Assembly: GCA_044361555.1 (NCBI GenBank)
Contig: JBIKIO010000001.1
Span: 8,393-72,392, forward strand
Length of the DNA: 64,000 bases
Origin: Opitutales bacterium
GTDB taxonomy: Bacteria; Verrucomicrobiota; Verrucomicrobiia; Opitutales; UBA953
Direction: 5' to 3'
The position numbers and the translations under genes were made by a program. Numbering within the stretch: position 1 is the stretch's first letter; each line of letters starts with the position of its first letter. The notes below the pieces were generated by a model, which was not told where the DNA came from, did no database searches, and saw nothing but the letters and a program-made list of their open reading frames with translations. Of this stretch, positions 14,355-35,197 are shown piece by piece.

Positions 14355-14359
14355 TCCGT

Positions 14360-15433: not shown

Positions 15434-15464
15434 ACTGACAGTGTTATAGATAACCCTCAGGTGG

Positions 15465-16460: not shown

Positions 16461-17494
16461 CCCCTTCTCACGCGAAGCGATGTGGCGCCCGCACCTTTGC
16501 CCACGGCGAATTCGACCTCGCACTTGGGACATGCATGAATGAAGCCTTCCGGACCTTGCCTCACGCCTCCGGCGCAGGCGATCGTACCGCACTCGGGACC
16601 ACAGATGACATACTTGTCCACTCCGCAATAGGGACAAGCAGGGGGCGAAGAAACGATGGAGATATCGATGGCCTCGCCGACCCCGGCATCCTGGTCGGGC
16701 TCGATGTCGTCCGGCGAAAGGGCGTGGGAGCGATGAGCCTTGAAGGTCTCCTCCGACTCATCCCACTTGAAGTGCATGATGAAAGGGCGGCGCTTGGCTC
16801 CGCAGACGGCACGGAGATAGAAATCAGCGACGGCGCTGTCATCCGGAAGGTGCTTCGCATCGACCATGGTGACGCCGACCGGAAGACTTTCGAGCATGGC
16901 CCGCCCTCCCCTGTCATCCTGCGATCGGCTGGCCTCGGTGAGCGTCTCGCTCATCCAGAAGAAGAGACGATCAAGCACGCCCGCTTCCATCGACTCGGCC
17001 TTGAGCAGGATGTCTGATATCTTCGATAGCGAACGCAGGTCGGCGTCCTCGCCGCAGCCGACGACGTAGAAGTTGGCGACCAAGTCGCCGATGGTGTCCT
17101 TGTAGACCTTAAGCGACTTCTCGAAATCGTCCGTCGGTTTGCCGTCCGCAAGCAGGATGACGATCGGGCGCCAGTCTCCTCGCTGGACCCGGTCTCGACG
17201 GGACACCTCGTCCCGGATGCGAGCGGCAAGCAATTCCAGGGCCGCCCCCAAGGCGGTGCCGTTGCCAAGCCGCACTGAGGGCATCACCGCGTCGGGCAGT
17301 GCCGTCAGGGGCAGCAGCACCTTGGCGCGGCTGGAGAATCCGATGATCGAGATATGGACGGTCTCAAGCGCCTGAGGATTGACGCTGAGCCTGGAAAGGA
17401 TGCTCCCGATGCCACGCCGGGCGGCGGCCAGACCCTCTCCCACCATCGACTCGGAACAGTCGAGCAGGATGTAGACCGGGAGACGTCGGAGCAT
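16457..17494 (-). CDS. TerY-type vWA protein with C-terminal TerY-C-like zinc ribbon
   Basis: N-terminus MLRRLPVYILLDCSESMVGEGL (DxSxS MIDAS), then GNGTALG and ILLADGKPTDD. C-terminal Cys cluster: SPPACPYCGVDKYVICGPECGTIACAGG...HACPKCEVEF. Confidence 0.9.
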   Translation of the reverse strand: MLRRLPVYILLDCSESMVGEGLAAARRGIGSILSRLSVNPQALETVHISIIGFSSRAKVLLPLTALPDAVMPSVRLGNGTALGAALELLAARIRDEVSRRDRVQRGDWRPIVILLADGKPTDDFEKSLKVYKDTIGDLVANFYVVGCGEDADLRSLSKISDILLKAESMEAGVLDRLFFWMSETLTEASRSQDDRGGRAMLESLPVGVTMVDAKHLPDDSAVADFYLRAVCGAKRRPFIMHFKWDESEETFKAHRSHALSPDDIEPDQDAGVGEAIDISIVSSPPACPYCGVDKYVICGPECGTIACAGGVRQGPEGFIHACPKCEVEFAVGKGAGATSLRVRRG

Positions 17495-19010: not shown

Positions 19011-21209
19011 TCAGCTGAGTTTATGGAAAAGCACTGCGATGGTCCGGTCGTCGTGATGACCCTTCTGATAGGAATCTAGCCAGGCGCAAAGGCCGCCCCG
19101 CTCCTTGAAGGTCTCTACGCGCTCGGTATCATTCTCCGTGAAAGGCTCGCGCTCGACGATGGGTTTTAGTTCTTCAGCAAGAAGATCCCAGATTGCGGGT
19201 TTATCGTCCTCTCCGTGCGGGATCAGCGGGTCGCTGACTCCGTCGCTCATGAGCAACAAAGCGTAGTTCTCGGGAAGCTTCGTATGGACTAGCCTCTTTT
19301 CCGCGTCATTGGCTCCTTTATTAAGGATAAATAGCGTCTGTCCTGCGGATTGGCCGTGATCAGGAACGCACTTAAGTCCTGAGGCGCCTCCGGCGAGACC
19401 AAGTCCGATGGCGCCGTCTCCGGCGGAGTAAGTCAGCAAGACGTCCCCCTCAGGCGTCGGAAGAACCAACGCAGCCAGGAAGGTGGCGTACATCTCCTTG
19501 GCTAGGAAGTCGGGGCGTCGTTCCTTGATGCATTCCGACTCGAACTCGATCTGGGCACTGATGGTCTGCACCAGGGCGGCGAAACCATCTAAGGCCGCCT
19601 GACTTCGCCCCTTCAGGCATTCAGGATTAGCCAGCAGGTCCTCTCCCAGCTTGACGAGAGATCTGACTCCGAAGGAAGCGACGATGCGTGAACCTCGACG
19701 AGAAAGAGGCGCTGATCCTGCGCCGTCGGAGACGATGATCGCGACCGCCTTGCCTTCATGGAAAAAGCGGGCATCGGCATGATCTTCACGGAAACTTCCG
19801 CCCTTCACATGGCTGCGCCCCCTGATTGAAGCGTACGCTAGGTCGAACCCGGCGGACTTCTGCCGACGAGAGACACGGTGGGGCTTGGAAAAAAGATCGT
19901 CCGGTTTTGCGACCTCATAGGAATTAGAAGATGAGCGCACCGCTTCGGCCATCTTCGCTAGACTGGGAACCTCGTCGTCGGAAACAACGGCATCCTTGTC
20001 GGAGTCGGCTTCCTCGATCTGCTTCCAGAGTTGCTCGGCGTCCATATTGCAGGTAAGCAGCAGATCGATTTCATGCGTGAGGCTTTCGCAGCCCCGGCAG
20101 GCGAATATGACGCGTATCTTATTATCATTGCCTACGGTCGGAAGCCCTTTGATGCGCTGCGTCTCGAAGTCAGCCTCCAGGGAGCCCAGACCTTTGGCGT
20201 CTTTCCAGATGAGCCACTGAGCATCAAAAGATAGGATTGATTTAAGGTCATAATCAACCTCCTGCCCCTGCTTGGCATTCTCAAGACGAACGGGTGTAGG
20301 CATCTTGGACTTCCACTCGAAGAACTTTTCGGCGACGGTCGGGAATTCTGCCTGCAAGGTGACCTCCAAGGTCTCAGCCTTGATTTCATCGCGCAGTTCA
20401 GGGTCAGCCGTGATCGCCGGATCCGAAACCTCCAGGACAAACTTGACCTTCCGGTCCTTGAAGAAGGCGTAGGCGTCATTGAGTACCATGACCATCCCCT
20501 CGCGATCCCAGGCCAGATAGGAGCGAAGGGACCCCTCGCGCATCGTCACCTTGAGCGGGGTGGATTTGAATTTTTCCGAAAAATCGAGGGTACCGCCGCC
20601 GATGCTGAGGACGTAGGCAGCCGGAATAGCATTCCTGAACGCAGTGAACCTGACCTTGAATTCCTTTCGGGATTCTTCGACTCGGTCTCGGCGATCCTGC
20701 TCCTGCTTCTTGCGCTCTGCTTCGGCCTTTTTCTTCGTCTGTTCAGGAGTCTCGACACCGACCGCAGGAGCAGCAGGCGCGGACTCGGCGCTTCCGGACT
20801 TCTCCGGGGCGGCGACAGCCCCTTGACCACCCGCCTGGACCGCACATCCGGAATCAGGCACCTTATCAGAGCGTGTGCTTTTCATCATGAAATATAAAAA
20901 AGCCGCCGAGGCGGCGCAAGTGAACGAAGCCCAAAGCATACACACCGTTAACAAAACCCAATCCAAGCACAACTTAAGGAAAGGAACCAATAACCCGCTA
21001 CCGTCAGCGACGAGATCCTTCCCAGAAGGTAATGTTGCAGACTGATGCTCCAAGTAGCTCCAACGGTAGACACCATATGCCGCCACGAACGGCAAGCCCA
21101 ACACGATTATCCACCCCATCACTGAGGCGGCAACATGGAGTATGTAGCCTAACTTGAGCAGATCGGACAAGCCCCATCGATGCTCCTTACCGCCGATTGG
21201 CTCAGCCAT
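19011..21209 (-). CDS. Membrane-anchored PP2C-family protein phosphatase, 732 aa
   Basis: N-terminal hydrophobic helices (ILHVAASVMGWIIVLGLPFVAAYGVY; WVLLTVCMLWASFTCAASAAFLYFMM). A charged linker. C-terminal PP2C_2-like motifs SIRGRSHVKGGSFREDH, AIIVSDGAGSAPLSRRGSRI, LLLMSDGVSD. The ATG at 21209 directly abuts the upstream TAA (TAAATG). Confidence 0.9.
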   Translation of the reverse strand: MAEPIGGKEHRWGLSDLLKLGYILHVAASVMGWIIVLGLPFVAAYGVYRWSYLEHQSATLPSGKDLVADGSGLLVPFLKLCLDWVLLTVCMLWASFTCAASAAFLYFMMKSTRSDKVPDSGCAVQAGGQGAVAAPEKSGSAESAPAAPAVGVETPEQTKKKAEAERKKQEQDRRDRVEESRKEFKVRFTAFRNAIPAAYVLSIGGGTLDFSEKFKSTPLKVTMREGSLRSYLAWDREGMVMVLNDAYAFFKDRKVKFVLEVSDPAITADPELRDEIKAETLEVTLQAEFPTVAEKFFEWKSKMPTPVRLENAKQGQEVDYDLKSILSFDAQWLIWKDAKGLGSLEADFETQRIKGLPTVGNDNKIRVIFACRGCESLTHEIDLLLTCNMDAEQLWKQIEEADSDKDAVVSDDEVPSLAKMAEAVRSSSNSYEVAKPDDLFSKPHRVSRRQKSAGFDLAYASIRGRSHVKGGSFREDHADARFFHEGKAVAIIVSDGAGSAPLSRRGSRIVASFGVRSLVKLGEDLLANPECLKGRSQAALDGFAALVQTISAQIEFESECIKERRPDFLAKEMYATFLAALVLPTPEGDVLLTYSAGDGAIGLGLAGGASGLKCVPDHGQSAGQTLFILNKGANDAEKRLVHTKLPENYALLLMSDGVSDPLIPHGEDDKPAIWDLLAEELKPIVEREPFTENDTERVETFKERGGLCAWLDSYQKGHHDDRTIAVLFHKLS

Positions 21210-21938
21210 TTAGGTAAGCTGAGGAGGGGGCGGAGGCAGCGGAGGGTTTCCGGCGGAGGTCGGTCCAGGCGAAGGGGCACCAGGCGGCGGCGGCGGCGCG
21301 CCACCGGCCATATCATCCGGATTGGCACTCCCGGATACGGCCGCGATCGAGGCGGAGACCCACTTGAAGAAGGCCTGCATTTTCATCGGGTCAGCCGTGC
21401 TGACATGGACCAGATTGGTCACCGATTCGTCGGGGTATCCAGCGGGCGCATCGGAAGCATCAAGGAAACGGACTAGGTTGGATTCGTCGGCGCCATTGAC
21501 GGCGCACGCGACACGCACGCCCCAGCGGAGCTTCTTGAATTCACGGATACCGGCATCAAAGTCATCGGTCGGAACGCCGTCAGTCAGGAAGAACACCATC
21601 GGGCGCCAATCACCGGCGGTACTTCCGGTCTTGGGCACGAGGTCGGCCTTGCGGGTGCGCACGAGCAGCTCTAGCGCCTCCCCCATGGCCGTCGAACCGG
21701 CGGCATCCAGGACGGCAGGCACGTTGAAACTTTCCAAGGAAGTGAGCGGAACCTCGACCTTGGCGGAAGCGCCAAAAGAGATGAGGCAAAGGTGTGCCGT
21801 TTCGAGGGCCTGAGGGTCGGCGCGTAGGCCGTCGATGATGCTGCTCAGCTGGGTACGGACCTGGTTAATCGGATCACCGCTCATCGAACCAGAGGTATCG
21901 ACGAGGAAGTAGATAGGGAGACGGCGGGCGGAGCTCAT
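21210..21938 (-). CDS. TerY-type vWA protein with polyproline C-terminal tail
   Basis: MSSARRLPIYFLVDTSGSMSGDPI (MIDAS), AGSTAMG, FFLTDGVPTDD. The tail is GGAPPPPPGAPSPGPTSAGNPPLPPPPPQLT. Confidence 0.9.
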   Translation of the reverse strand: MSSARRLPIYFLVDTSGSMSGDPINQVRTQLSSIIDGLRADPQALETAHLCLISFGASAKVEVPLTSLESFNVPAVLDAAGSTAMGEALELLVRTRKADLVPKTGSTAGDWRPMVFFLTDGVPTDDFDAGIREFKKLRWGVRVACAVNGADESNLVRFLDASDAPAGYPDESVTNLVHVSTADPMKMQAFFKWVSASIAAVSGSANPDDMAGGAPPPPPGAPSPGPTSAGNPPLPPPPPQLT

Positions 21939-22024: not shown

Positions 22025-22690
22025 CTATGCGCTATCGTCTGGCCGCAGGCCAGCCCGCGCGGAGGGGGCCGTCGGACCGAGCCCGCCCGGCAAGGAGGCA
22101 GAATTCCCCCCGGAGTCTTCATTCCCGAGAATCAGACTCAGCATGAGGCAGAACCTGGTGACCGCACCGGCTCCGGCATCCTGACCGAAAAGAGACAGAT
22201 GGGAAGACCTGCACTGCCGTTCGCCGACAAATCTCTCCAGTTGGCCTTCATCCGCACCGGACAAACCCCAAGCGACGCGCGCAGACCAGGACGCGGCGTC
22301 CACGCGACCGATGGCGGCATCGAAATCATCCGTAGCGACACCGTCCGAGACGAGGAGCGCCACGGGAGCAAGGCGACATAGGGAAGGCATCTCAGAAGGC
22401 CTGCTCCGCACTTCAAGCATGAGGTCGATCGCCGCCCCCGTCGCCGTCGAACCAGCAGTCTCAAGGTCCGCCGGGAACTCAATGTCATCGAGAGAGACGG
22501 GCGGAGCCAGAAGCCGCGCCTCGCCGCTGAAACCGACCAAGCAGACGTCCACCCTTCCGTGGATCAGGTCGTTCTTCGACATGGCATCCTTAAGCAGGCG
22601 GAGGTTTCCGAGCAAAGAAGTCATGGGCTCTCCCGCCATCGAGCCAGAAGTGTCGATGAGGATGAAAACTGTCAGTCGGCCCAGGGCCAT
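22025..22690 (-). CDS. Small vWA (TerY-like) protein, 221 aa
   Basis: An internal ATG at 22690-22688 lies 2 nt after the upstream stop (TGACCATGG). It gives MALGRLTVFILIDTSGSMAGEPM, then AGSTATG and LLVSDGVATDD. The longer track ORF (to 22828) would overlap the upstream gene. Confidence 0.85.
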   Translation of the reverse strand: MALGRLTVFILIDTSGSMAGEPMTSLLGNLRLLKDAMSKNDLIHGRVDVCLVGFSGEARLLAPPVSLDDIEFPADLETAGSTATGAAIDLMLEVRSRPSEMPSLCRLAPVALLVSDGVATDDFDAAIGRVDAASWSARVAWGLSGADEGQLERFVGERQCRSSHLSLFGQDAGAGAVTRFCLMLSLILGNEDSGGNSASLPGGLGPTAPSARAGLRPDDSA

Positions 22691-22692
22691 GG

Positions 22693-23232
22693 TCAGATCA
22701 GGCCAAGCCAATTCTCGACGTCCTGAGGAGTCACGCTGAAGACGTCTCCGGCCGGCCTGCGCCCACCCTTCGGCCAGTTCTCGAAATAGGCCAGCGACTC
22801 CCTGCATGAGGCATCCGCGCCGAGGCATATCCTGAGCGCCTTGGAAACCTGAGCGAAGGACCCGGCGACCTCGACGACGTCGTCGACGAAATGACCGTCA
22901 GAAAGCAGCACGATGAGGTCGGATTCCGTATCGCCGTTCTGCGCGATATCTTCCTCAAGAAGGCGCGTGGCCGCACCAAGGGAGGCTCCGCCGAAGGCCG
23001 CCAGCTCGTAGGCGTTCGGGAAGACCAAACTATCTATGTCCAGGTCCTTCGCCAGCCATTCAGCCGAAGTATCGAAGGCAACCAAACTAACCAGCACGTT
23101 TCCGTAAAGATGGCGGTTCGCCCTGAGGGTCGACAGGAGGCTCCACTCAACGAAAGCGCCTGCCTGTCCGGCTGGCGCGCCCGCCATGGAGGACGACCGG
23201 TCCAATAAGAGGGTGATTTTGCGTAGGCTCAT
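22693..23232 (-). CDS. Small vWA-like protein, 179 aa
   Basis: MSLRKITLLLDRSSSMAGAP (DxSxS), then LIVLLSDGHFVDD. ATGA overlap with the upstream gene at 23229-23232. Confidence 0.8.
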   Translation of the reverse strand: MSLRKITLLLDRSSSMAGAPAGQAGAFVEWSLLSTLRANRHLYGNVLVSLVAFDTSAEWLAKDLDIDSLVFPNAYELAAFGGASLGAATRLLEEDIAQNGDTESDLIVLLSDGHFVDDVVEVAGSFAQVSKALRICLGADASCRESLAYFENWPKGGRRPAGDVFSVTPQDVENWLGLI

Positions 23233-24746
23233 GGGCGCGGCGTCGTCAGGTATCCCGCGAGGATACGCACCTCGATGACCACCGTACCCAAGGTAAGCTT
23301 ATTGCCGTTCTTCAGGACATGGATGGTCTTAGACATGTGATTCGTGAGCACGGCCTTGCCGTCCTTGAGCTGGAAACTCGCGATCTCAGCGGGATACCCG
23401 CTCTTGATCGGCAAACGGACGGTAGCATCGCGAGAAGTCCCGATCATCACGAGACGGGACCCAAGGTTGACCGTCGTGGTCTCGTTTTTCGCCCAGTGTA
23501 CCACGAGGTAAGCCTCCCGGGCCACGGCTTCGGCGATTGTTACGGCCAGGGCGATGAACAAGCCCAGGAACGCGGCCCCCATCAGCCGCGAAGCCATGTC
23601 AGCGCCCGACATCGACACGAGCAGGAATCCTCCTACCGCGACTAAACCTCCCAAGGCGCCAAAGATCACGGACCTGATGACGTTCAGGTTCGGCATCGCC
23701 AGCGTGATCGTCAGACCTAGCCCGGCGCCCACGAAAGTCCAAGAGGCGATTCGCGGGAGTTCGCCGTAATCCTTCACCTCACCCAAGGCATAGGTATAGA
23801 GCGCCTGAGCGATGACACCGGCGGCGAAACCGAGCCCAAGGCTGATGGCCATCGTTCTCAGGACGGGCAAAGGCCGGAGTGAGCCACCTAGCAGAACTTG
23901 CTGGAAAGTCTCCACCGCCACGGCGATGCCGAAACAGACCAGGCCGACCCAAAGACCCGCCTGCAACGCGTCCGGCCAGAAATTCTTACGGACCAGGGCG
24001 ACATCGATCTTGGCCCCCGGCACTCCGGTACCTCTCAACACGGAACTGTCCGCCACGGCGACGGCCACCTCCTTGAAGAGATTAGCCAACCCTTCGGACT
24101 GTCGGCCATAGCGGTCCATGGTGAAGGCTTTCCCAGGAGCGGCGGACGAGAGAAAGGCGTAATCATCGGTCAGCGAAGCCAGCGTGACCACGTCAACCTC
24201 GTCGACCTTCGCGGCCTTCAGCTTGGCGACGACATCGTCGGTGGAGAAGATCTCATCATCAGGGATGTCGGTCGTCTCATCGGTGATCAGGATGACCACC
24301 TTACGGGCGTCACGATTGAAGGGCACCCCCGCCGCCACGGCCAGACCGGACAGCGAGCTATCTCCAGAAAAAGCCCTCCCACCTTTGACGAACAAAGGCT
24401 TCATCGCCTCGACGACCTTTCTGACATCAGAGGTCAGAGGATGCGTCACACGTGCGTCGCTGTCGAAAGTCACCAATCCGAAACGACCCTTGATCTTGCG
24501 CGCCTCGAGCTGACCGAGGAACTCGGTCAGACTGTTACGCACCCCTTCGAGCTCTCCCGACATGCTGCCGGAGATATCCAGGACGAAGACGAGGTCCACC
24601 GGCCGCTGATCCTCCGCGACGAGGATGGTCTCGGCACGCTTCTCCCCCACCCACCTCTCGGCGAACAAGGCAAGAAGGAGGCCGCCAAGGAGACCAGCTA
24701 CGCCGAGGACCAGCCATTTGGGAGAGCGCGCGAGCAGAGAACGCAT
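23229..24746 (-). CDS. Signal-anchor + vWA + polytopic TM core + C-terminal FHA-like domain (paralog 1)
   Basis: N-terminal helix WLVLGVAGLLGGLLLALF. vWA motifs VDLVFVLDISGSMSGE and VILITDETTD. Multiple hydrophobic helices follow. C-terminus: YLVVHWAKNETTTVNLGSRLVMIGTSRDATVRLPIKSGYPAEIASFQLKDGKAVLTNHMSKTIHVLKNGNKLTLGTVVIEVRI. Confidence 0.9.
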   Translation of the reverse strand: MRSLLARSPKWLVLGVAGLLGGLLLALFAERWVGEKRAETILVAEDQRPVDLVFVLDISGSMSGELEGVRNSLTEFLGQLEARKIKGRFGLVTFDSDARVTHPLTSDVRKVVEAMKPLFVKGGRAFSGDSSLSGLAVAAGVPFNRDARKVVILITDETTDIPDDEIFSTDDVVAKLKAAKVDEVDVVTLASLTDDYAFLSSAAPGKAFTMDRYGRQSEGLANLFKEVAVAVADSSVLRGTGVPGAKIDVALVRKNFWPDALQAGLWVGLVCFGIAVAVETFQQVLLGGSLRPLPVLRTMAISLGLGFAAGVIAQALYTYALGEVKDYGELPRIASWTFVGAGLGLTITLAMPNLNVIRSVIFGALGGLVAVGGFLLVSMSGADMASRLMGAAFLGLFIALAVTIAEAVAREAYLVVHWAKNETTTVNLGSRLVMIGTSRDATVRLPIKSGYPAEIASFQLKDGKAVLTNHMSKTIHVLKNGNKLTLGTVVIEVRILAGYLTTPRP

Positions 24747-24760
24747 GGTGGCGAAGGGAA

Positions 24761-26266
24761 TCAGTGGATGATCCGGACCTCGATGACGACCGTGCCGAGC
24801 GTCAGCTTGTTGCCGTCCTTAAGGACGTGGGTCGTGTGGGACATGTGGTTGATCAAAGTCGGCTTACCGCCCACGACCTTGAAGGTGGCGACGGCCCCGG
24901 GATAGCCGGTCTTGGGCGAGATCCGGACGGTCGACTCGACGCTGGTGCCGACGAGGACCGGCGCGCCGCCGATATTGACGGTGGATTTCTCGTTCTTCGC
25001 CCAATGCACGATAAGGTAGGCCTCCCGGGCGATCACCTCAGCCATCGCCACCGCGATGCCGACCGAGAAACCGATCAGCAAGGCGCCGACGACCCGGCCG
25101 CCGAAGTCGGAAAAGCGCATCCCACCGACGATGAGCATGAACGCCACGCAGCCGACGAAACCGCCGGCGGAAGCGCAGAGCAGCGCGTTCAGTTTCGAGA
25201 TATTGGGGATCACGAAGGTCATCGCGAAGCCGAGCCCGGCGCCGACCACGACCCATGAGATGATCTTACCCAAGGCATCGGGCGTGCCTAAGGCATCAAG
25301 GCCGAAGAACAAGGTCTGCCCAAGGACGCCGGAGGCGGCGCCGATCAGGGTCCCGAGCAGCATCGACTTGAGCAGACCGGGCACACGCAACGAACCCGTC
25401 AGCATGTACTTCTGACCAGCGACCAAGGAAAGTCCGACGCCGATCGAAACCATCGAAAGCCAGAGACCCACGGACATGACACCCTTGAGATAAGAGGTGA
25501 AGGAGTGGTCCTTCTGAGCATCCTCCGCGACGCTGCCCAACATGGAGGGGCTGACCACTTCCCGTGCGACCCCCTCGAAGATACGCGCAAGGCTGCTTTC
25601 GGTCCGCCCGGAGGCATCCAGGACGAAACGCTTCCCGGGGACCTGCTCCTTGAGGAAATCGAAGGTGTCGATGATCCCTGAAGAAGCGACGACATGGACG
25701 GATTCGATGCCGCCAGCGCGAAGTTCCGAGGCCAGGCCTGAAGCCGAAACAATCTGCCCATCCGGTTCGTGCCAGGTTTCATCGGTGATGAGGACGACGA
25801 CCCGGCGCGAAGCGGGGTCAAAAGCGAGACCGGCGGCGACCTTCAATCCGTCCAACGAACTCTCCCCGCTATTGTCGCCACCGCCCGAAGCCCGGAGCCT
25901 TGTCATGCCAGAAGAGAACACCATCGGATCCGATGTGAAAACTTGGATCACTTCAGTCCCCTGGTCATAGGTGAGATCACGGAAAGTCACCAAGGCGAAG
26001 CGCATCGGCACGCCGGAGGCCTTCGACTGTCGGGTGAATTCGACGATGCTCGACCTGACGCCGTTGATCTCCTTCTGCATGCTGCCGCTGACATCCAGCA
26101 CGAACACGAGATCCACCGGCGATTTATTGGGCTGAGCGGCGGCCACCGGCACAGATTCGGTCAAAGCTGCGGCCGGTTCGCCGAGCAGCGAAAATAAGAG
26201 CCCTCCCGTCATGCCGACGACGCCGAAGACCAGCCACTTGGGCGCACGATTGAGGAAGGAACGCAT
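24761..26266 (-). CDS. Signal-anchor + vWA + polytopic TM core + C-terminal FHA-like domain (paralog 2)
   Basis: Same architecture as 23229-24746. vWA motifs VDLVFVLDVSGSMQKE and VVLITDETWHE. C-terminus: YLIVHWAKNEKSTVNIGGAPVLVGTSVESTVRISPKTGYPGAVATFKVVGGKPTLINHMSHTTHVLKDGNKLTLGTVVIEVRI. Confidence 0.9.
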   Translation of the reverse strand: MRSFLNRAPKWLVFGVVGMTGGLLFSLLGEPAAALTESVPVAAAQPNKSPVDLVFVLDVSGSMQKEINGVRSSIVEFTRQSKASGVPMRFALVTFRDLTYDQGTEVIQVFTSDPMVFSSGMTRLRASGGGDNSGESSLDGLKVAAGLAFDPASRRVVVLITDETWHEPDGQIVSASGLASELRAGGIESVHVVASSGIIDTFDFLKEQVPGKRFVLDASGRTESSLARIFEGVAREVVSPSMLGSVAEDAQKDHSFTSYLKGVMSVGLWLSMVSIGVGLSLVAGQKYMLTGSLRVPGLLKSMLLGTLIGAASGVLGQTLFFGLDALGTPDALGKIISWVVVGAGLGFAMTFVIPNISKLNALLCASAGGFVGCVAFMLIVGGMRFSDFGGRVVGALLIGFSVGIAVAMAEVIAREAYLIVHWAKNEKSTVNIGGAPVLVGTSVESTVRISPKTGYPGAVATFKVVGGKPTLINHMSHTTHVLKDGNKLTLGTVVIEVRIIH

Positions 26267-26271
26267 AGTTT

Positions 26272-27198
26272 TCAGGAGAAGAGATGGATTTCGATCACCA
26301 CGCTGCCCAAGGTCAGTTTGTTGCCGTTGCGAAGGGCATGCGTCGAGCGAGACATATGGTTCACCATCGTGGCCTGGCCTCCCTGCAGGCTGAAGGTCGC
26401 CACGATCGGAGGATAACCAGCCGAAGAAGCCATGCGGATGGTCGATTCGCGCGAACTTCCGACGGTGACCGGCTTTTCGCCCAAGTTGACTCGGGTGAAC
26501 TCACCCGGGCCCCAGACGACGCGAAGGTAACCCTCCTTGGCCGTGGCCTCCGCCACCGCGACGGACAGGCCGATGAAAAGCCCTATGATACCAGTCCCCA
26601 CGAGACGGGCGCCCACATCCGCGAGACCTTCGCCACTGGCTGAACTGCTAGAATCCATGACTGCACGTATGACCGTGTTGACAAAGATAAAGCCAACGCC
26701 GCCGGCCACACCGCCAGCAAAACCAAAAAGAGCTGACCTCGTGCTTTTGAGATTCGGCACTACGAAGGACAACGTTAGGCCAAGCCCGCCACCGGCGAGA
26801 CCCCACGCAATCGCCCTAAGTGTTTCAACGAAAAACACTCCGGAAAGAGGCCCGATGGCGACCTGAAAAAGGCACTCAGCCAGAGCTCCGGAAAGAAAGC
26901 CCAGGAACACGCCTACAGCCAGAGGACGAAGCAGGTCGGCGAAGAAATTTTCTGAATCGGAACCAAGAAGAACGCGCTGGCAACTAAAGATCAAAAAAGC
27001 CACTCCGACAGACGGACAGCAGAACCAAACACCCGTATGAAACATCCGCACAAGCAAAGGGATGTTCCTGCGAGTGTCATCCGCTGCGGCAATAATGAGG
27101 TTAATCAGTTCATAGGCCGCATTGAATAAGCCCGCCCCCAGTAATCCTGCCAAGGCGAAGACCAACCATTTCGGATATGCGGAGAGCAGTTTGCGCAT
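26272..27198 (-). CDS. Polytopic TM core + C-terminal FHA-like domain, no ectodomain (paralog 3)
   Basis: 308 aa. Hydrophobic helices run through the first ~220 aa. C-terminus: YLRVVWGPGEFTRVNLGEKPVTVGSSRESTIRMASSAGYPPIVATFSLQGGQATMVNHMSRSTHALRNGNKLTLGSVVIEIHL. Confidence 0.85.
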   Translation of the reverse strand: MRKLLSAYPKWLVFALAGLLGAGLFNAAYELINLIIAAADDTRRNIPLLVRMFHTGVWFCCPSVGVAFLIFSCQRVLLGSDSENFFADLLRPLAVGVFLGFLSGALAECLFQVAIGPLSGVFFVETLRAIAWGLAGGGLGLTLSFVVPNLKSTRSALFGFAGGVAGGVGFIFVNTVIRAVMDSSSSASGEGLADVGARLVGTGIIGLFIGLSVAVAEATAKEGYLRVVWGPGEFTRVNLGEKPVTVGSSRESTIRMASSAGYPPIVATFSLQGGQATMVNHMSRSTHALRNGNKLTLGSVVIEIHLFS

Positions 27199-27205
27199 GG
27201 GTGTA

Positions 27206-28639
27206 TCAGGAGAAGAGCTTCACCTCGATGGTGACGGTTCCGAGCGGCAGCTTGTTGCCGTCCCGCAGCGGGTGCGTCGCACCGGTCATGTTATGGTACA
27301 TGGTCGCCTTACCGTCCCGCATGGTGAAGGTCGCGATCGTGGCGGGGAAGCCACTGGACTTGGGAATCCGGACCGTGGATTCAGAACCGGTACCGACGAT
27401 GACCGGGGTCGCGCCGAGATTGACGGTGGTGAACTCGCCAGGCCCCCAGATCACGCGGAGATACCCTTCCCGGGCCAGCGCCTCGACGACGGCGACGGAG
27501 AGCCCGACGGCGCCTCCGAGCACCAGACAGGCGATCAGTCGACCAAAGGTCAGCGAACCGACCAGTAGGAAGGACAGCACCAATCCAGCGAGAACGCCGC
27601 CGGCAAGTCCGCCCAAGATGGCCTTCACGCGATCAAGATTCGGGATGATCAATGAAAATGCGAAACCCAGCATCCCCCCGACGACGACCCAAGCGACGAC
27701 TTTGAGCATCTTATCCGCCAAGGCTCCGTTGCCACTCGAGAAGGCGGACAGCATGCCCTGCCCCACCAATCCGGCGAAGATGCCGGCGCACAAGCTCAGG
27801 AGCAGTACCTTTCCAAACTGTGCAGGAATCCAAGAATCTGCCCCTAGCATCCTGCGCTGGGCGACGGAAATCGCGAATGAGGTTCCTAGTGCAAGACATC
27901 CTAAGGTCAGGCCGACGGATGCCACGCCAAGCAGGAAGGCGGAAATGCTCGTCTTTCGGACGACCCCGGAGGCTCGCTGGTACTCGAATTCGCAGACGAC
28001 GACGCCGCTGGTCGTGCTGGATGACACGTTCGAGACCGTGGCTGACCTCCTGATGACCTGATCCCCGATCAGCACATCAAGCTTGAAGGGAATGTCGCGC
28101 AAGTTTGAGCGACGGGTGAATAGCTGCACCTTGAACAAATACTTGCCTTCAGGAGCCTGACCTGTGGGCCAGAAGATGTGCTCGACCGGATCGAGCCGCA
28201 GGGTCGCTCCGGCGTTCTGATCTACGTCGAGCTCGCCATGAGTCGGCGAGCGGCGTCGGCCGAAATAAATTTGAGCCCCTGTGGGGTCGATACAATGGAG
28301 GTCCAAGTCATCCAAGGTCTCCCAGCTCAAGGCCGTCCGGATATCCCCTGACATACTGGCGCCGGCCGCCGCCAACCTGCTTTGGACGGCGGAGTCGAAC
28401 AACAGCGAGGGCGACGAAGAGACCTCGGCATCATTCCGCCGATAGACGCCCGGCGAGACCTCCTCCACCAATGGGCCGGAGGCGGAGCTTGCAACCGACT
28501 TTGCGGCAAAAAACTCTCCGGCACCCCAGCCTAGCAAGGCGCCGGCCGAACCGAGCAGGAAGAACAGCAGAGGCTTGGGGAGTGAAAGCAGTCTCACGCC
28601 GCCAGAGATAATGGGACCACCTGAGGTGGCAAGCCACAA
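27206..28639 (-). CDS. Signal-anchor + DUF2135/YfaP-like beta domain (tentative) + polytopic TM core + C-terminal FHA-like domain (paralog 4)
   Basis: The start is uncertain: TTG at 28639 or GTG at 28597, with no ATG before the first TM helix. N-terminal module: LSWETLDDLDLHCIDPTGAQIYFGRRRSPTHGELDVDQNAGATLRLDPVEHIFWPTGQAPEGKYLFKVQLF. C-terminus: YLRVIWGPGEFTTVNLGATPVIVGTGSESTVRIPKSSGFPATIATFTMRDGKATMYHNMTGATHPLRDGNKLPLGTVTIEVKL. Confidence 0.85.
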   Translation of the reverse strand: MWLATSGGPIISGGVRLLSLPKPLLFFLLGSAGALLGWGAGEFFAAKSVASSASGPLVEEVSPGVYRRNDAEVSSSPSLLFDSAVQSRLAAAGASMSGDIRTALSWETLDDLDLHCIDPTGAQIYFGRRRSPTHGELDVDQNAGATLRLDPVEHIFWPTGQAPEGKYLFKVQLFTRRSNLRDIPFKLDVLIGDQVIRRSATVSNVSSSTTSGVVVCEFEYQRASGVVRKTSISAFLLGVASVGLTLGCLALGTSFAISVAQRRMLGADSWIPAQFGKVLLLSLCAGIFAGLVGQGMLSAFSSGNGALADKMLKVVAWVVVGGMLGFAFSLIIPNLDRVKAILGGLAGGVLAGLVLSFLLVGSLTFGRLIACLVLGGAVGLSVAVVEALAREGYLRVIWGPGEFTTVNLGATPVIVGTGSESTVRIPKSSGFPATIATFTMRDGKATMYHNMTGATHPLRDGNKLPLGTVTIEVKLFS

Positions 28640-28672: not shown

Positions 28673-29551
28673 TCAGACCGAAGAACCAAGCCAGGAAAGT
28701 AACCGTTCATGCTCCTCCATGTGCCGGCGACAATCGGCCATACGTTCACTCCGCCGCTCTCCCGCCGGATCATCCCGCAGCGCGATCAGCCTCTGCCGAA
28801 AGAAAGCATGCATGCGGCGGAGATGCGCGACTTTGGACGGTCCTTGTTCGAGGAAATCGACCTCAAGCTTGCGCTCGAGCAGCGAACGCTCGTGCTCGTC
28901 TGTCGACGAGGTGTCGTGAAGACCGAAGATTTCGGCGACCGCGAGGCGGTCGGCCAACGCGACGATGGCATCATGCACGGGAGAACCAGCCCGGGAGGCG
29001 GCGAAGGCTTGTCCGCAGAAATGGACGAGGTCGGCCATCTCGGCGTAATTCGCTTGGGATGCGAACTGACCAAGGACTCCGTCATAGGCCGCGTCGTCCT
29101 CAGGAATCAGGCGCAAGGCCTCACCCAAGGATTGCTCGGAATCGACTCCGCAGACGGCGCTGACGGCAAGCCAGCGCGCCTCGTACCATTCACGGAAAAG
29201 ACCCAGCGGGAAACCGGTGGGATTTCCGGAAGCGATGCGGCCTACGATCCGGGCGCACAACCCAAGCCGGACCACATAGCCACGAAGCGCGATCTCGTCG
29301 CACGAGGCCATATCTGGTGCTTCCTTGAGCTTCGGCGGACGAGGCGCACCCGGCCGGAAAGAAGGTGACACCATGGCGACGGGGTCGGCGGAGGTAACGG
29401 ACGCGGTGGGCGCGGCGGCCGAGGGTACGAAACCTAGGGCCTGCCAAGCCTTCGCCAAAAGCGGAGACCATAACTTCGCGGTTAAATAGAGTCCGGCGAT
29501 GATCAGGACATAGATCAGCACGAATACCTGGACTGCCTCGGAGACGTTCAT
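28673..29551 (-). CDS. Hypothetical membrane-anchored helical protein, 292 aa
   Basis: ATG at 29551. N-terminal helix VQVFVLIYVLIIAGLYLTAKLW, a short Pro-rich linker, then a helical region with no recognised motif. Confidence 0.7.
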   Translation of the reverse strand: MNVSEAVQVFVLIYVLIIAGLYLTAKLWSPLLAKAWQALGFVPSAAAPTASVTSADPVAMVSPSFRPGAPRPPKLKEAPDMASCDEIALRGYVVRLGLCARIVGRIASGNPTGFPLGLFREWYEARWLAVSAVCGVDSEQSLGEALRLIPEDDAAYDGVLGQFASQANYAEMADLVHFCGQAFAASRAGSPVHDAIVALADRLAVAEIFGLHDTSSTDEHERSLLERKLEVDFLEQGPSKVAHLRRMHAFFRQRLIALRDDPAGERRSERMADCRRHMEEHERLLSWLGSSV

Positions 29552-31596: not shown

Positions 31597-31707
31597 GCTC
31601 GGAGGACAGGCATCCAATCAAAGAAGTCCTTGCCCCTTGTCGAGAACAGCCACCCGGGCGGTCTCTTTTAGATTGCCTGTAAGCGAAGGAAGAAGGCATC
31701 TTCGGGC
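31597..31707. promoter_or_regulatory. Divergent intergenic region; probable promoter region for the minus-strand array and the plus-strand GYF gene
   Basis: This is the 111-nt gap between divergently oriented starts (31596 minus, 31708 plus). No convincing -35/-10 boxes were identified by eye. Confidence 0.3.
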
Positions 31708-34347: not shown

Positions 34348-34431
34348 CTTCGCAGACTAAGATCGCCGGACGTCCCGCCACAAGCAACTAAACGGGGTTT
34401 GAGTTTCTTGATTAATATCATAGCAAATGGC

Positions 34432-35178: not shown

Positions 35179-35197
35179 GCCCGCGGCCGCCGCCCGA

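What the first reader, a model, noticed from the sequence alone, without database searches (positions are those of the whole stretch)
23229..28639. Four tandem paralogs sharing a polytopic TM core and a non-canonical FHA-like C-terminal domain, with swapped ectodomains
Genes 23229-24746, 24761-26266, 26272-27198 and 27206-28639 share a multi-helix membrane core, with blocks such as I(A/I)SW..VGAGLG(L/F)..(T/S)...PN(L/I). They also share an ~85-aa C-terminal domain:
- It starts with YL.V.W...E.T.VN(L/I)G..PV.VG(T/S)(S/G).(E/D)(S/A)T(V/I)R.
- It ends with L(K/R)(N/D)GNKL(T/P)LG(T/S)V.IE(V/I).

The overall pattern matches the FHA fold (f.iGR....d..l....vSr.HA.i...... L.dGd.i.iG...l.f). However, the hallmark Gly-Arg is G(T/S)(S/G), and the Ser-x-x-His is replaced by P..IA. 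The N-terminal modules differ: vWA, vWA, nothing, and a DUF2135-like beta domain. With a kinase and a PP2C in the same operon, these look like sensor or scaffold subunits whose cytoplasmic domain is either a divergent phospho-reader or a phospho-independent FHA-like module.
Basis: partly seen in the sequence, partly recalled or inferred. Interest (0 to 1): 0.75.

Follow-up and report, generated by a model that had tools for sequence, protein, structure and literature searches.

The report
Membrane proteins with degenerate FHA tails
Four neighbouring genes encode six-helix membrane proteins that carry interchangeable outward-facing modules and an inward-facing FHA-fold domain lacking the usual phosphothreonine-binding residues; in this lineage they always sit next to a TerY-P kinase/phosphatase module, a kind shown elsewhere to defend against phages.

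Summary
The four minus-strand genes are clear paralogues. Their C-terminal domains are 49-64% identical (E 1e-32 to 1e-42) and their membrane cores 26-35% identical.

The C-terminal ~85 residues have an FHA fold:
- The AlphaFold model has pLDDT 95.
- All 50 best Foldseek PDB matches are FHA domains (TM 0.65-0.81).
- hhalign against canonical FHA domains gives 94% probability.
- Distant relatives carry a Pfam-recognised FHA at the same position after the same core.

Only the Gly of the phosphothreonine-binding signature remains. Arg is replaced by Ser/Thr/Gly, Ser by Pro, His by Val/Ile, and the Asn-bearing hairpin is deleted.

The full-length model shows six helices. The variable modules (two vWA, one DLDLH beta-domain, none) are inserted between TM1 and TM2. 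They are therefore on the opposite side of the membrane from the FHA-like domain.

The genes belong to an uncatalogued family (1,638 clusters; no Pfam or NCBIfam model). In this subfamily the genes are always followed by extra vWA genes and a TerY-P triad (15 of 15 loci long enough to show it).

The most likely role is the membrane receptor or scaffold arm of a TerY-P phospho-signalling system. That role is inferred, not shown.

The parts
23229..24746 (-). Paralogue 1 (505 aa): TM1, vWA insert, TM2-6, FHA-like C-terminal domain
   Evidence: ORF and translation; alignment A1; six hydrophobic segments; 93% identical orthologue in L001
24135..24596 (-). vWA domain of paralogue 1 (residues 51-204), DxSxS metal-site motif intact, inserted between TM1 and TM2
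   Evidence: Pfam PF00092 E 1.5e-14; sequence LDISGSM...ITDET read directly
23232..23528 (-). FHA-like C-terminal domain of paralogue 1 (residues 407-505)
   Evidence: Coordinates; homologous to the modelled domain of paralogue 3 (49% identity, E 1e-34)
24761..26266 (-). Paralogue 2 (501 aa): TM1, vWA insert, TM2-6, FHA-like C-terminal domain
   Evidence: 92% identical orthologue in L001
25691..26113 (-). vWA domain of paralogue 2 (residues 52-192)
   Evidence: Pfam VWA_4 E 1.1e-12, VWA E 1.1e-7
24764..25036 (-). FHA-like C-terminal domain of paralogue 2 (residues 411-501)
26272..27198 (-). Paralogue 3 (308 aa): the minimal form, six helices plus the FHA-like domain and no insert
   Evidence: full-length AlphaFold2 model with pLDDT 91.4, helices 10-39, 48-78, 82-114, 121-146, 152-181, 187-220 and a beta-domain at 223-306; 40 orthologues
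26275..26547 (-). FHA-like C-terminal domain of paralogue 3 (residues 218-308), the part modelled on its own
   Evidence: AlphaFold2 pLDDT 95, pTM 0.85; Foldseek top 50 all FHA domains; PDB profile hits; hhalign 94.3%
27206..28639 (-). Paralogue 4 (477 aa, TTG start): TM1, DLDLH beta-domain insert, TM2-6, FHA-like C-terminal domain
   Evidence: 91% identical orthologue over residues 1-477 in L001
27965..28519 (-). Insert of paralogue 4 (residues 41-225) holding the 'DLDLHC...ELDVDQN...PVEHIFWP..APEGKY' beta-domain
   Evidence: The same domain occurs in about 20 family representatives. DUF2135 hits are sub-threshold only (E 0.01-0.13) and paralogue 4 itself has none
27209..27481 (-). FHA-like C-terminal domain of paralogue 4 (residues 387-477)
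22693..23232 (-). Small soluble vWA-like protein (179 aa, LLLDRSSSM) immediately downstream of paralogue 1
   Evidence: Sequence; matched by a local vWA profile and conserved in L001, L002 and many metagenome loci
22025..22828 (-). Soluble vWA protein. The real start is probably Met47, near 22690, which removes the 136-nt overlap
   Evidence: Pfam VWA E 1.5e-6; the L001 counterpart is 213 aa; overlap shown
21210..21938 (-). Soluble TerY-like vWA protein (242 aa) with a proline-rich tail
   Evidence: Pfam VWA E 2.2e-13; tail sequence
19011..21209 (-). PP2C phosphatase (732 aa) with N-terminal hydrophobic helices
   Evidence: Pfam PP2C_2 E 8.4e-22, residues 463-665; sequence
17500..19008 (-). 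[quoted passage not shown]
   Evidence: Pfam Pkinase 39 bits against a cut-off of 31.7; HSDLSYNN, APE and CxxxxC...CxxC read directly
16457..17494 (-). vWA plus TerY-C protein (345 aa), the third member of the TerY-P triad
   Evidence: Pfam VWA E 1.6e-14; TerY_C E 4.6e-5 (23.9 bits, below the 28.4 cut-off)
28673..29551 (-). Conserved 292-aa protein of unknown family, immediately upstream of paralogue 4
   Evidence: No Pfam, NCBIfam or PADLOC hit; 80% identical orthologue at the same position in L001
29627..31617 (-). Two GYF_2-TM proteins (326 and 328 aa) at the head of the gene array
   Evidence: Pfam GYF_2 E 1.5e-8 for the 326-aa protein only. The 328-aa protein has no Pfam hit and is called GYF-like from its similarity to the other. 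Both are syntenic in L001 and L002
10117..16637 (-). Downstream continuation of the array: 390-aa unknown, bpMoxR AAA+ ATPase (14360-15472), 496-aa unknown and a 916-aa protein that looks like a coiled coil by eye
   Evidence: Pfam PF20030 bpMoxR E 4.2e-50; gaps of -8 to +5 bp; bpMoxR and the start of the 496-aa gene are conserved in L002

Best explanation
The four genes encode paralogous inner-membrane proteins built on one plan. A signal-anchor helix (TM1) has a cytoplasmic N-terminus. A slot between TM1 and TM2 takes interchangeable periplasmic modules: a vWA domain with an intact metal site in two paralogues, a DLDLH beta-domain in one, and nothing in one. A glycine-rich five-helix bundle follows (TM2-6, with conserved W..G..LG, PNL and GG..GG..F motifs). 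The protein ends in a cytoplasmic, shortened FHA-fold domain that descends from a canonical FHA but has lost the phosphothreonine-binding residues.

The four proteins most likely work together as the membrane receptor or scaffold arm of an enlarged TerY-P module (vWA/TerY-C, zinc-ribbon Ser/Thr kinase, membrane-anchored PP2C, plus three further soluble vWA proteins). In this model the periplasmic modules bind a ligand or an envelope component. The near-identical FHA-like tails then dock one common cytoplasmic partner of the kinase/phosphatase module without needing phosphothreonine. This follows the precedent of the FHA-like domains of type III secretion proteins YscD, PscD and MxiG, which are known as phospho-independent (my own knowledge).

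Shown here: paralogy, FHA fold, loss of signature residues, six helices, domain order and gene linkage. Inferred: sides of the membrane, hetero-oligomer formation, the docking partner, the direction of signalling and a role in defence.
For: FHA fold and descent:
- AlphaFold2 gives pLDDT 95.
- The top 50 Foldseek PDB hits are all FHA domains, TM 0.65-0.81.
- A profile of the domain alone hits GarA, OdhI and FhaA.
- hhalign gives 94.3%, E 1e-7, against canonical FHA domains that do not follow a TM core.
- P0045-P0048 carry Pfam FHA directly after the same core.

Loss of signature residues:
- The Arg position is S118/G50/T14/A5 and never R among the 195 best family sequences.
- Ser is replaced by Pro and His by Val/Ile.
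- There is a ~10-residue deletion at the 'GSxNGT' hairpin.

Topology:
- The model has six long helices.
- Paralogues 1 and 2 have six hydrophobic segments and a +3 N-terminus.
- In relatives GYF_2, Pkinase, TIR_2 and canonical FHA domains lie before TM1, while vWA and DLDLH domains lie after it.

Linkage:
- The gene array is tightly packed.
- There is full synteny in L001 and L002.
- All 15 loci of this subfamily that reach far enough carry vWA-PP2C-kinase downstream, with 2-4 paralogues.
- Independent links occur in distant members. A TIR-bearing member sits in a TerY_C/Pkinase/PP2C_2 operon. A TerY-P-type kinase is fused directly to the module and preceded by PP2C_2. A canonical-FHA member sits next to a zinc-ribbon kinase. 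A distant soil member sits next to a kinase (L060).

Common partner: the four C-terminal domains form one tight subfamily. The four cores are as distant from each other as from unrelated family members.
Against: - No binding partner, phosphorylation or topology has been measured. Sidedness rests on charge bias and domain order.
- A large branch of the family has no kinase, PP2C or vWA gene within 10 kb. These are ~290-300-aa single-copy genes in Limisphaerales, Pedosphaera and others, and about 40 such loci were seen. The family's core activity therefore does not require TerY-P.
- The loops that correspond to the FHA peptide-binding face are themselves strongly conserved (G-[ST]-[SG]-x-[ED]-[SA]-T, G-[YF]-P, NHM[ST]). 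Some ligand is probably still bound there, and a phosphorylated one is not excluded.
- The 15 linked loci are relatives from one lineage (52-94% identity). They count as one evolutionary observation.
- No PADLOC family model matched the vWA or PP2C proteins, and the kinase matched only generic kinase models. The TerY_C hit is below Pfam's cut-off.
Confidence: 0.5

Rival explanations
1. The C-terminal domain is still a phospho-reader. It binds a phosphorylated Ser/Thr site made by the operon's kinase through a rebuilt pocket, for example the subfamily-invariant Arg of 'T(V/I)R', the His residues of 'NHMS..TH', and a Ser/Thr retained at the position of the FHA beta6-beta7 loop.
For: - The loops equivalent to the FHA binding face are the most conserved parts of the domain across the four paralogues.
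- A Ser/Thr is kept in 131 of 195 family sequences at the column that hhalign aligns to the 'S' of 'S.NG'.
- Kinase and PP2C genes are strictly linked in this subfamily.
- Ancestral-type relatives have a canonical FHA next to a kinase.
Against: - The Arg and Ser positions are replaced in every one of the 195 top family sequences. From my own knowledge of FHA domains, these two residues contact the phosphate directly.
- The His is replaced as well, and the Asn-bearing hairpin is deleted.
- The candidate substitute Arg and His residues are confined to the window's subfamily and are not family-wide.
Confidence: 0.15
2. The six-helix glycine-rich core is the effector. On a signal from the kinase/phosphatase module the paralogues oligomerise into a pore or channel that collapses membrane potential (abortive infection). 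The FHA-like domain is the regulatory handle and the periplasmic modules are accessories.
For: - TerY-P-like triads work as stand-alone anti-phage systems (Gao et al. 2020, as cited in PMC11090510).
- One family member carries an N-terminal TIR domain inside a TerY_C/kinase/PP2C operon.
- The helices are rich in small residues with invariant Gly, PNL and GG..GG..F motifs.
- A bpMoxR ATPase follows in the array. Its Pfam family is defined by MoxR-vWA-beta-propeller ternary systems, which are described as conflict systems in PMC7159879.
Against: - The core has no convincing structural match to any known channel or pore. The best non-FHA hits have probability <=0.41 and rmsd above 12 Å.
- About 40 single-copy relatives sit in a conserved neighbourhood that looks like housekeeping (Rieske protein, 93-aa protein, family gene, 372-aa protein) with no defence genes seen.
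- Four divergent cores with different ectodomains look more like receptors than a single pore.
Confidence: 0.2
3. The proteins are structural envelope components, such as an assembly platform or anchor. The FHA-like domain would play the phospho-independent scaffold role I recall for YscD/PrgH in type III secretion (and for EssC/EccC in type VII, which no tool here touched). The linkage to TerY-P would be secondary regulation.
For: - Foldseek also matches the T3SS cytoplasmic domains (4d9v, 4a0e, 6uid, 4a4y, 4g2s).
- Some relatives give weak Yop-YscD_cpl hits on this very domain (P0163 E 0.0014).
- A large branch of the family is single-copy and free of kinase genes.
- The GYF_2-TM proteins and a probable coiled-coil protein in the array suggest a large assembly.
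Against: - No secretion-system ATPase, secretin or ring-building protein is in the array.
- The architecture differs from the single-pass YscD/PrgH plan as I recall it. Here a six-helix core comes before the FHA-like domain.
- The number of paralogues varies from 2 to 4 between close relatives, which is unusual for a fixed structural machine.
Confidence: 0.1

Closest known systems
Canonical bacterial FHA domains (GarA/OdhI, FhaA Rv0020c, DgcB; Pfam PF00498)
   Same: They share the beta-sandwich fold (TM 0.73-0.78). There is detectable profile similarity over the whole domain. The Gly of 'GR' and the 'L..G..i.iG' C-terminal hairpin are retained. There is genomic linkage to a Ser/Thr kinase and PP2C.
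   Different: There is no Pfam hit even at E<=1. Arg, Ser and His of the pThr site are replaced, and the 'GSxNGT' hairpin is deleted. This leaves 8-9 strands, fewer than the ~11 I recall for canonical FHA. The domain is fused to the C-terminus of a six-helix membrane core.
FHA-like cytoplasmic domains of T3SS inner-ring proteins (YscD, PscD, MxiG, PrgH; Pfam PF16697)
   Same: This is an FHA fold at the cytoplasmic face of the inner membrane. From my own knowledge, these T3SS domains lack the phosphothreonine residues and act as protein-docking modules. They are structural matches here (4d9v, 4a0e, 6uid, 4a4y), and relatives give weak PF16697 hits.
   Different: From my own knowledge, those proteins are N-terminal FHA, one TM helix and periplasmic ring-building domains, and they belong to a secretion machine. 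Here the order is reversed (six helices, then FHA-like) and no secretion genes are present.
TerY-P triad (TerY-like vWA, PP2C, Ser/Thr kinase with zinc ribbon or OB fold)
   Same: The array contains all three components in adjacent genes, and the kinase carries a zinc ribbon. This matches the description in PMC11090510. The triad was proposed to be a phosphorylation-dependent switch, and versions with an OB-fold kinase act as anti-phage systems.
   Different: In what I could read, the triad is described as three cytoplasmic proteins. Here it is preceded by 2-4 membrane proteins with FHA-like tails, three extra vWA genes and GYF_2-TM proteins. The PP2C has N-terminal membrane helices. The original 2012 description (Anantharaman et al.) could not be read, so prior mention of such membrane partners cannot be excluded.
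Deinococcus radiodurans DRA0331-DRA0334 operon (vWA, STPK, FHA protein, PP2C)
   Same: It has the same four domain types in one operon. Biochemistry shows that the FHA protein and the phosphatase tune kinase phosphorylation antagonistically (bioRxiv 10.64898/2026.01.23.701218).
   Different: [quoted passage not shown] Here the FHA-like domain is degenerate and sits on polytopic membrane proteins that also carry the vWA.
Type VI secretion threonine-phosphorylation pathway (PpkA, PppA, Fha1) of Pseudomonas aeruginosa
   Same: From my own knowledge, it uses the same parts list: a periplasmic vWA domain, a membrane span, a Ser/Thr kinase, a PP2C phosphatase and an FHA protein. Together they couple an envelope signal to assembly of a cytoplasmic complex.
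   Different: There the vWA is on the kinase and the FHA protein is soluble and phospho-dependent. Here vWA and FHA-like domain are on the same membrane protein, and the kinase has no hydrophobic segment in its sequence, so it is probably soluble. This comparison is recalled, not tested here.

Membership tests
FHA domain (fold level) | Beta-sandwich fold superposable on solved FHA domains | tested here: met
   AlphaFold2 pLDDT 95. Foldseek top 50 PDB hits are all FHA domains, probability 1.00, TM 0.65-0.81. The full-length model gives the same result.
FHA domain (Pfam PF00498 sequence family) | Match to the Pfam FHA model above its gathering score | tested here: not met
   None of the four paralogues gives an FHA hit at E<=1. 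Remote homology is supported by hhalign (94.3%) and by PDB profile hits (E 0.008-0.06).
FHA domain (functional signature) | Gly-Arg in the beta3-beta4 loop | tested here: not met
   Gly is kept in 194 of 195 sequences. The Arg position is S/G/T/A and never R. In the window it reads GTS, GTS, GSS, GTG.
FHA domain (functional signature) | Ser-x-x-His in the beta4-beta5 loop | tested here: not met
   The aligned residues are P-x-x-(I/V), followed by the conserved Ala.
FHA domain (functional signature) | Asn-Gly of the beta6-beta7 loop | tested here: not met
   Both profile alignments show a ~10-residue deletion that spans 'GSxNGTxvN'. A Ser/Thr may be retained at the preceding position.
FHA domain (functional signature) | Binds phosphothreonine peptides | not testable with these tools
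   This needs binding assays.
TerY-P triad | TerY-like vWA protein with a TerY-C metal-binding domain | tested here: inconclusive
   vWA E 1.6e-14. TerY_C E 4.6e-5 but 23.9 bits, below the 28.4 cut-off. Cys-rich C-terminus seen directly.
TerY-P triad | PP2C phosphatase in an adjacent gene | tested here: met
   PP2C_2 E 8.4e-22, 78 bits against a cut-off of 24.
TerY-P triad | Ser/Thr kinase fused to a C-terminal zinc ribbon (or OB fold) | tested here: met
   Pkinase 39 bits against a cut-off of 31.7. 'CNNKQC...CPFC' follows the kinase domain. The definition is taken from PMC11090510.
TerY-P triad | Confers phage resistance | not testable with these tools
   No PADLOC family model matched the vWA or PP2C proteins. 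The kinase gave only generic kinase hits.
vWA domain | Pfam match and DxSxS metal-site motif | tested here: met
   Paralogues 1 and 2: PF00092/PF25106, E 1e-14 and 1e-12. 'DISGSM' and 'DVSGSM' read directly.
DUF2135 (Pfam PF09906) | Match to the model above its gathering score (22 bits) | tested here: not met
   Paralogue 4 gives no hit at E<=1. Five of eleven homologous ectodomains give 12.8-16.3 bits (E 0.01-0.13), always to model positions 1-32. This is a resemblance, not membership.
T3SS YscD/EscD cytoplasmic domain (PF16697) | N-terminal FHA-like domain, single TM helix, periplasmic ring-building domains, secretion-system context | tested here: not met
   The fold matches. The architecture is six helices followed by the FHA-like domain, and no secretion genes are nearby.
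MoxR-vWA-beta-propeller ternary system | bpMoxR ATPase plus a vWA/beta-propeller component plus a third variable component | tested here: inconclusive
   bpMoxR E 4.2e-50 at 14360-15472. The adjacent 390-, 496- and 916-aa proteins have no Pfam hits, so the other two components were not identified.

The most novel reading that the evidence does not exclude
The six-helix/FHA family is the so far unrecognised membrane arm of TerY-P-type kinase/phosphatase systems. In this reading a modular periplasmic slot (vWA, DLDLH domain and others) senses phage attack or envelope damage. The signal crosses a new six-helix fold and is handed to the kinase/PP2C switch through an FHA domain re-tooled for phosphate-independent docking. 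Alternatively the same core acts as the membrane-disrupting effector. Either way this would give TerY-P defence systems an input or an output, which none of the texts I could read assigns to them.
Probability: 0.25. Interest if true: 0.75.

Novelty: new variant of a known kind. Interest (0 to 1): 0.55.

Why it matters
TerY-P triads are widespread, and some versions protect against phages. In the texts I could read they are described only as a hypothesised signalling switch, with no sensed signal or controlled output named. A strictly linked set of membrane proteins with outward-facing ligand-binding domains and an inward-facing adaptor domain gives a concrete, testable candidate for the input or output.

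The family is also large and unnamed. It has 1,638 clusters at 50% identity and no Pfam or NCBIfam model. Public records call its members 'Ca-activated chloride channel family protein', 'YegL' or 'hypothetical'.

The family contains both canonical and degenerate FHA versions on the same scaffold. It is therefore a natural series for studying how an FHA domain loses phosphothreonine dependence.

Tried and rejected
1. Direct sequence searches with the C-terminal domain gave nothing useful. Pfam at E<=1 gave no hit, and single-sequence PDB phmmer gave only chance ankyrin hits. A family profile and a structure model were needed.
2. PADLOC gave no system-level hit.
3. NCBIfam has no model for the core or the C-terminal domain.
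4. Foldseek with the full-length model found no credible match for the six-helix core. V-ATPase c-subunit, GPCR and flippase hits had probability <=0.41 and rmsd above 12 Å.
5. I tested whether the kinase's beta-rich C-terminal part is also FHA-like, which would have suggested FHA-FHA pairing. hhalign gave probability below 1% against both canonical FHA and the family domain, so the idea was rejected.
6. I tested whether the extra C-terminal domain of about 18-20 relatives ('GL.NLS..W...G....I.PG.S.RL..GT.I.FG') matches the kinase tail or FHA. It did not match the kinase tail. It gave only a partial 65% hit to the family domain and 3% to canonical FHA. This remains unresolved.
7. P0179 looked like a counter-example, with vWA apparently before TM1. 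It is an N-terminally truncated record that starts inside the vWA domain.
8. The original TerY-P paper (PMID 23044854, PMC4104200) is not held.
It was rerun with A2.
10. Kinases 6-7 kb away on the opposite strand in three Mycobacterium loci are not counted as linkage. They could be coincidental.

Full report
THE OBSERVATION

The four open reading frames exist as described on the minus strand: 23229-24746 (505 aa), 24761-26266 (501 aa), 26272-27198 (308 aa) and 27206-28639 (477 aa, TTG start). A four-way alignment shows three shared parts: a conserved N-terminal helix, a multi-helix core and a ~90-residue C-terminal domain. It has 57 invariant columns.

Pairwise BLASTP of the separate parts gives the following:
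- C-terminal domain: 49-64% identity, E 1e-32 to 1e-42.
- Core: 26-35% identity, E 1e-8 to 1e-23.

So the paralogy is not in doubt.

Pfam finds vWA domains in paralogues 1 and 2 and nothing in paralogues 3 and 4. It finds no FHA in any of them, even at E<=1.

WHAT THE C-TERMINAL DOMAIN IS

Four independent lines say it is an FHA fold that descends from a canonical FHA domain.

(i) Relatives. A profile of core plus C-terminal domain retrieved orthologues. It also retrieved distant relatives (P0045-P0048) in which the same core, with its PNL and GG..GG..F motifs, is followed directly by a domain that Pfam recognises as FHA and Yop-YscD_cpl.

(ii) PDB sequence profile. A 71-sequence profile of the C-terminal domain alone, searched against PDB sequences, gave FHA domains as its ten best hits (GarA, OdhI, FhaA/Rv0020c). 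E-values were 0.008-0.065, over 59-79 of the 88 profile positions.

(iii) hhalign. The same profile aligned with four canonical FHA domains that do not follow a TM core gives 94.3% probability, E 1e-7.

(iv) Structure. An AlphaFold2 model of residues 218-308 of paralogue 3 is confident (pLDDT 95, pTM 0.85) and all-beta. Its 50 best Foldseek matches in the PDB are all FHA domains. All have probability 1.00 and TM-scores of 0.65-0.81. They include GarA, OdhI, FhaA, CT664, DgcB, MDC1, Ki67, Rad53 and the type III secretion protein 4d9v.

HOW IT DEPARTS FROM CANONICAL FHA

Both profile alignments put the family's nearly invariant Gly on the Gly of the FHA 'Gly-Arg'. The next residue is Ser, Gly, Thr or Ala. 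It is never Arg in the 195 best-scoring family sequences.

The 'Ser-Arg-x-His-Ala' stretch aligns with 'Pro-(Pro/Ala)-x-(Val/Ile)-Ala'. About ten residues spanning the 'Gly-Ser-x-Asn-Gly-Thr' hairpin are missing. The model has eight or nine strands. From my own knowledge a canonical FHA has about eleven.

Of the residues that textbook FHA domains use to hold phosphothreonine (Arg, Ser, His, Asn; my own knowledge), only the structural Gly survives. A Ser/Thr at the start of the deleted loop may also survive.

The loops on that face are nevertheless strongly conserved among the four paralogues (G-[ST]-[SG]-x-[ED]-[SA]-T-[VI]-R, G-[YF]-P, NHM[ST]). Something is probably bound there. A canonical phosphothreonine is unlikely, but only a binding assay can decide.

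THE MEMBRANE PART AND THE SIDES OF THE MEMBRANE

A full-length AlphaFold2 model of paralogue 3 (pLDDT 91.4, pTM 0.84) has six long helices followed by the beta-domain: 10-39, 48-78, 82-114, 121-146, 152-181 and 187-220. Hydropathy gives six segments in paralogues 1 and 2. The N-terminal ten residues carry three positive and no negative charges.

With an even number of helices, the N-terminus and the FHA-like domain are on the same side. The TM1-TM2 loop is on the other side. That loop is where paralogues 1 and 2 carry vWA and paralogue 4 carries its beta-domain. The variable modules are therefore inserts, not N-terminal domains.

Domain order across the family gives an internal check:
- Domains that work in the cytoplasm are always found before TM1: GYF_2 in P0041, a protein kinase in P0081, TIR in P0099, and canonical FHA in P0143 and P0147.
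- vWA (40 of 97 extended representatives) and the DLDLH domain (about 20 representatives) lie after TM1.
- The one apparent exception, P0179, is a truncated record.

This supports cytoplasmic termini and periplasmic inserts. It remains an inference.

The six-helix core itself has no credible match in the PDB.

THE INSERT OF PARALOGUE 4

Its 'DLDLHC...ELDVDQN...PVEHIFWP..APEGKY' domain recurs in many family members. In one of them it is split by a nested vWA (P0092). Pfam's DUF2135 model gives only sub-threshold hits to some of these (E 0.01-0.13). It gives none to paralogue 4 itself. 'DUF2135-like' is therefore a resemblance, not a membership.

THE FAMILY

An exhaustive profile search of 1.84 billion cluster representatives found 1,638 with E<=0.001 and 456 with E<=1e-30. 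Neither Pfam nor NCBIfam has a model for the core or for the degenerate C-terminal domain. Public records name these proteins 'Ca-activated chloride channel family protein', 'uncharacterized protein YegL' or 'hypothetical protein'.

Genome hits lie mostly in Verrucomicrobiota (Coraliomargarita, Limisphaerales, Pedosphaera). There are also hits in Planctomycetaceae and Mycobacterium. The window is probably a freshwater verrucomicrobial genome.

GENOMIC CONTEXT

The four genes sit in a tightly packed minus-strand array from about 31617 down to 10117, with gaps of -8 to +86 bp once over-long ORF calls are discounted. In order of transcription the array holds:
- Two GYF_2-type TM proteins. Pfam recognises the GYF_2 domain in one of them only.
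- A 292-aa protein of unknown family.
- Paralogues 4, 3, 2 and 1.
- Three soluble vWA proteins.
- A PP2C with N-terminal membrane helices.
- A Ser/Thr kinase with a zinc ribbon.
- A vWA/TerY-C protein.
- A 390-aa protein of unknown family.
- A bpMoxR AAA+ ATPase.
- Two further proteins of unknown family.

The vWA/TerY-C, PP2C and zinc-ribbon kinase genes match the published description of the TerY-P triad. That description proposes a phosphorylation-dependent switch, and versions with an OB-fold kinase act as anti-phage systems (PMC11090510).

The whole arrangement is syntenic in two genome assemblies (L001, L002). Among 51 further metagenome loci plus these two, every locus of this subfamily that extends far enough downstream carries the vWA-PP2C-kinase genes (15 of 15). 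The number of membrane paralogues varies:
- Two in L054.
- Three in L002 and L053.
- Four in most loci.

These loci are relatives from one lineage (52-94% identity), so this counts as one lineage-level observation.

Independent support comes from distant members (~27-32% identity):
- A TIR-bearing member lies in a TerY_C / kinase / 207-aa / PP2C_2 operon.
- In P0081 a kinase of the window's type ('AHSDLS..NVLIDP') is fused directly to the six-helix/FHA-like module and preceded by PP2C_2.
- A canonical-FHA member sits next to a zinc-ribbon kinase.
- Another distant member sits next to a kinase (L060).

Against a universal link, about 40 single-copy members of ~290-300 aa have no kinase, PP2C or vWA gene within 10 kb. 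These are mostly from Limisphaerales and Pedosphaera. They occupy a conserved neighbourhood of Rieske protein, a 93-aa protein, the family gene and a 372-aa protein.

AN UNEXPECTED ASYMMETRY

By C-terminal domain, the four paralogues and their orthologues are each other's nearest neighbours. By core, they are as far from one another as from unrelated family members.

The simplest reading is that all four tails must fit one common partner, while the cores and ectodomains are free to diverge. Old concerted evolution of the tails is an alternative.

MECHANISM

The best-supported model is this. The four proteins are the membrane receptor or scaffold arm of an enlarged TerY-P module. The periplasmic vWA and DLDLH modules bind a ligand or envelope component. 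The cytoplasmic FHA-like tails dock a shared partner of the kinase/phosphatase machinery without phosphothreonine. This follows the precedent of the FHA-like domains of YscD, PscD and MxiG. Their fold match was found here. Their phospho-independence is from my own knowledge.

Shown: fold, residue loss, helix count, domain order and gene linkage. Inferred: sidedness, hetero-oligomer formation, the partner, the direction of signal flow and any role in defence.

The rivals are:
- A rebuilt phospho-reader.
- A pore-forming effector. The TIR fusion and the conflict-system neighbours make this worth testing, but no channel-like fold match exists.
- A structural scaffold unrelated to signalling.

COMPARISON WITH WHAT IS KNOWN

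- The domain is FHA at the fold level. It fails every residue-level criterion of the functional FHA signature except the Gly, and it fails the Pfam threshold.
- It resembles the type III secretion FHA-like domains in fold. From my own knowledge those are also phospho-independent and at the membrane, but their architecture differs.
- The vWA/kinase/FHA/PP2C parts list is the same as in the experimentally studied Deinococcus DRA0331-0334 operon.
- From memory, the same parts list occurs in the PpkA/PppA/Fha1 pathway of type VI secretion. There the parts are distributed differently among polypeptides.
- I could not read the original 2012 TerY-P paper. I therefore cannot exclude that membrane partners of this kind were noted there.

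VERDICT

The finding is a new variant of known kinds: a degenerate FHA, on a new six-helix scaffold, in an uncatalogued but large family, attached to a known kinase/phosphatase triad. It is moderately interesting (0.55). The interest would rise if the proteins prove to be the sensor or effector of TerY-P defence systems.

Noticed in passing
window 10117-16637 (minus strand): The array continues downstream of the TerY-C gene with a 390-aa unknown, a bpMoxR AAA+ ATPase (14360-15472, PF20030 E 4e-50), a 496-aa unknown and a 916-aa protein that looks like a long coiled coil by eye. Gaps are -8 to +5 bp. bpMoxR and the next gene are conserved in L002. A MoxR-vWA-type conflict module may be fused to the TerY-P array, but its vWA/beta-propeller component was not identified.
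   Followed up: partly
window 21210-21938 (minus) and 29627-30607, 30631-31617 (minus), 31708-32616 (plus): The 242-aa soluble vWA protein ends in a proline-rich tail (GGAPPPPPGAPSPGP...PPLPPPPPQLT). Three nearby genes encode GYF_2-type proteins with one TM helix (Pfam recognises GYF_2 in two of them). GYF domains bind proline-rich peptides (my own knowledge), so these may recruit that vWA protein. A distant family member (P0041) has GYF_2 fused directly to the six-helix/FHA-like module.
   Followed up: partly
window 19011-21209 (minus): The PP2C protein is 732 aa. It has hydrophobic helices at residues ~22-110 and a ~350-residue region without any Pfam match before the catalytic domain (463-665). 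The phosphatase is probably membrane-anchored next to the four paralogues.
   Followed up: no
window 17500-19008 (minus): The kinase has an unusual catalytic loop (HSDLSYNN instead of HRDLKxxN) and DCD where DFG is expected. APE is kept. A zinc ribbon (CNNKQC...CPFC) and a ~110-residue beta-rich tail follow. Pfam matches only positions 103-200 of the kinase model. Catalytic competence is uncertain.
   Followed up: partly
window 22025-22828 / 22693-23232 and 15465-16637 / 16457-17494: Two apparent gene overlaps of 136 and 181 nt come from over-long ORF calls. For the 267-aa vWA gene, starting at Met47 (about 22690) abuts the upstream stop codon and roughly matches the 213-aa orthologue in L001.
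   Followed up: partly
family members P0110, P0112, P0136, P0142, P0144, P0150, P0152, P0153, P0159-P0161, P0172, P0182, P0183, P0188, P0192, P0195 and others: About 18-20 representatives carry a second ~110-residue C-terminal domain with the motif 'GL.NLS...W.A.L..G....I.PG.S.RL..GT.I.FG...GEI'. hhalign gives only a partial 65% match to the family's FHA-like domain and 3% to canonical FHA.
   Followed up: partly
P0092 (935 aa): The DLDLH beta-domain is split into two pieces (residues 59-137 and 572-611) by a nested vWA domain (138-303) and further sequence. This is a domain-within-domain insertion in the periplasmic slot.
   Followed up: no
L006-L025, L028, L059-L084: A large branch of ~290-300-aa single-copy family members sits in a conserved neighbourhood: a Rieske protein, a 93-aa protein, the family gene, a 372-aa protein with a weak DUF3298 hit, and a ~1,100-aa protein. 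These members have 'IGGG.DH' in place of 'VG(S/T)S' and are mostly from Limisphaerales and Pedosphaera. No kinase gene is nearby. This suggests a housekeeping role for that branch.
   Followed up: partly
L003-L005 (Mycobacterium spp.): Family members of ~360-375 aa occur in environmental mycobacteria. Zinc-ribbon kinases with a C-terminal TM helix lie 6-7 kb away on the other strand, and L004 also has a vWA gene about 1 kb away. Linkage is not established.
   Followed up: no
window 32620-36094 and 41194-43362 (minus): The flanking genes are a Sel1-repeat protein (32620-34347), a multi-TM 298-aa protein (35198-36094) and an SNF2-family helicase (41194-43362). The Sel1 and 298-aa genes are syntenic in L001. 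The 258-aa ORF at 34357-35133 has a low-complexity, charge-rich translation and may not be a real gene, although tblastn finds 76% identity in L001.
   Followed up: no
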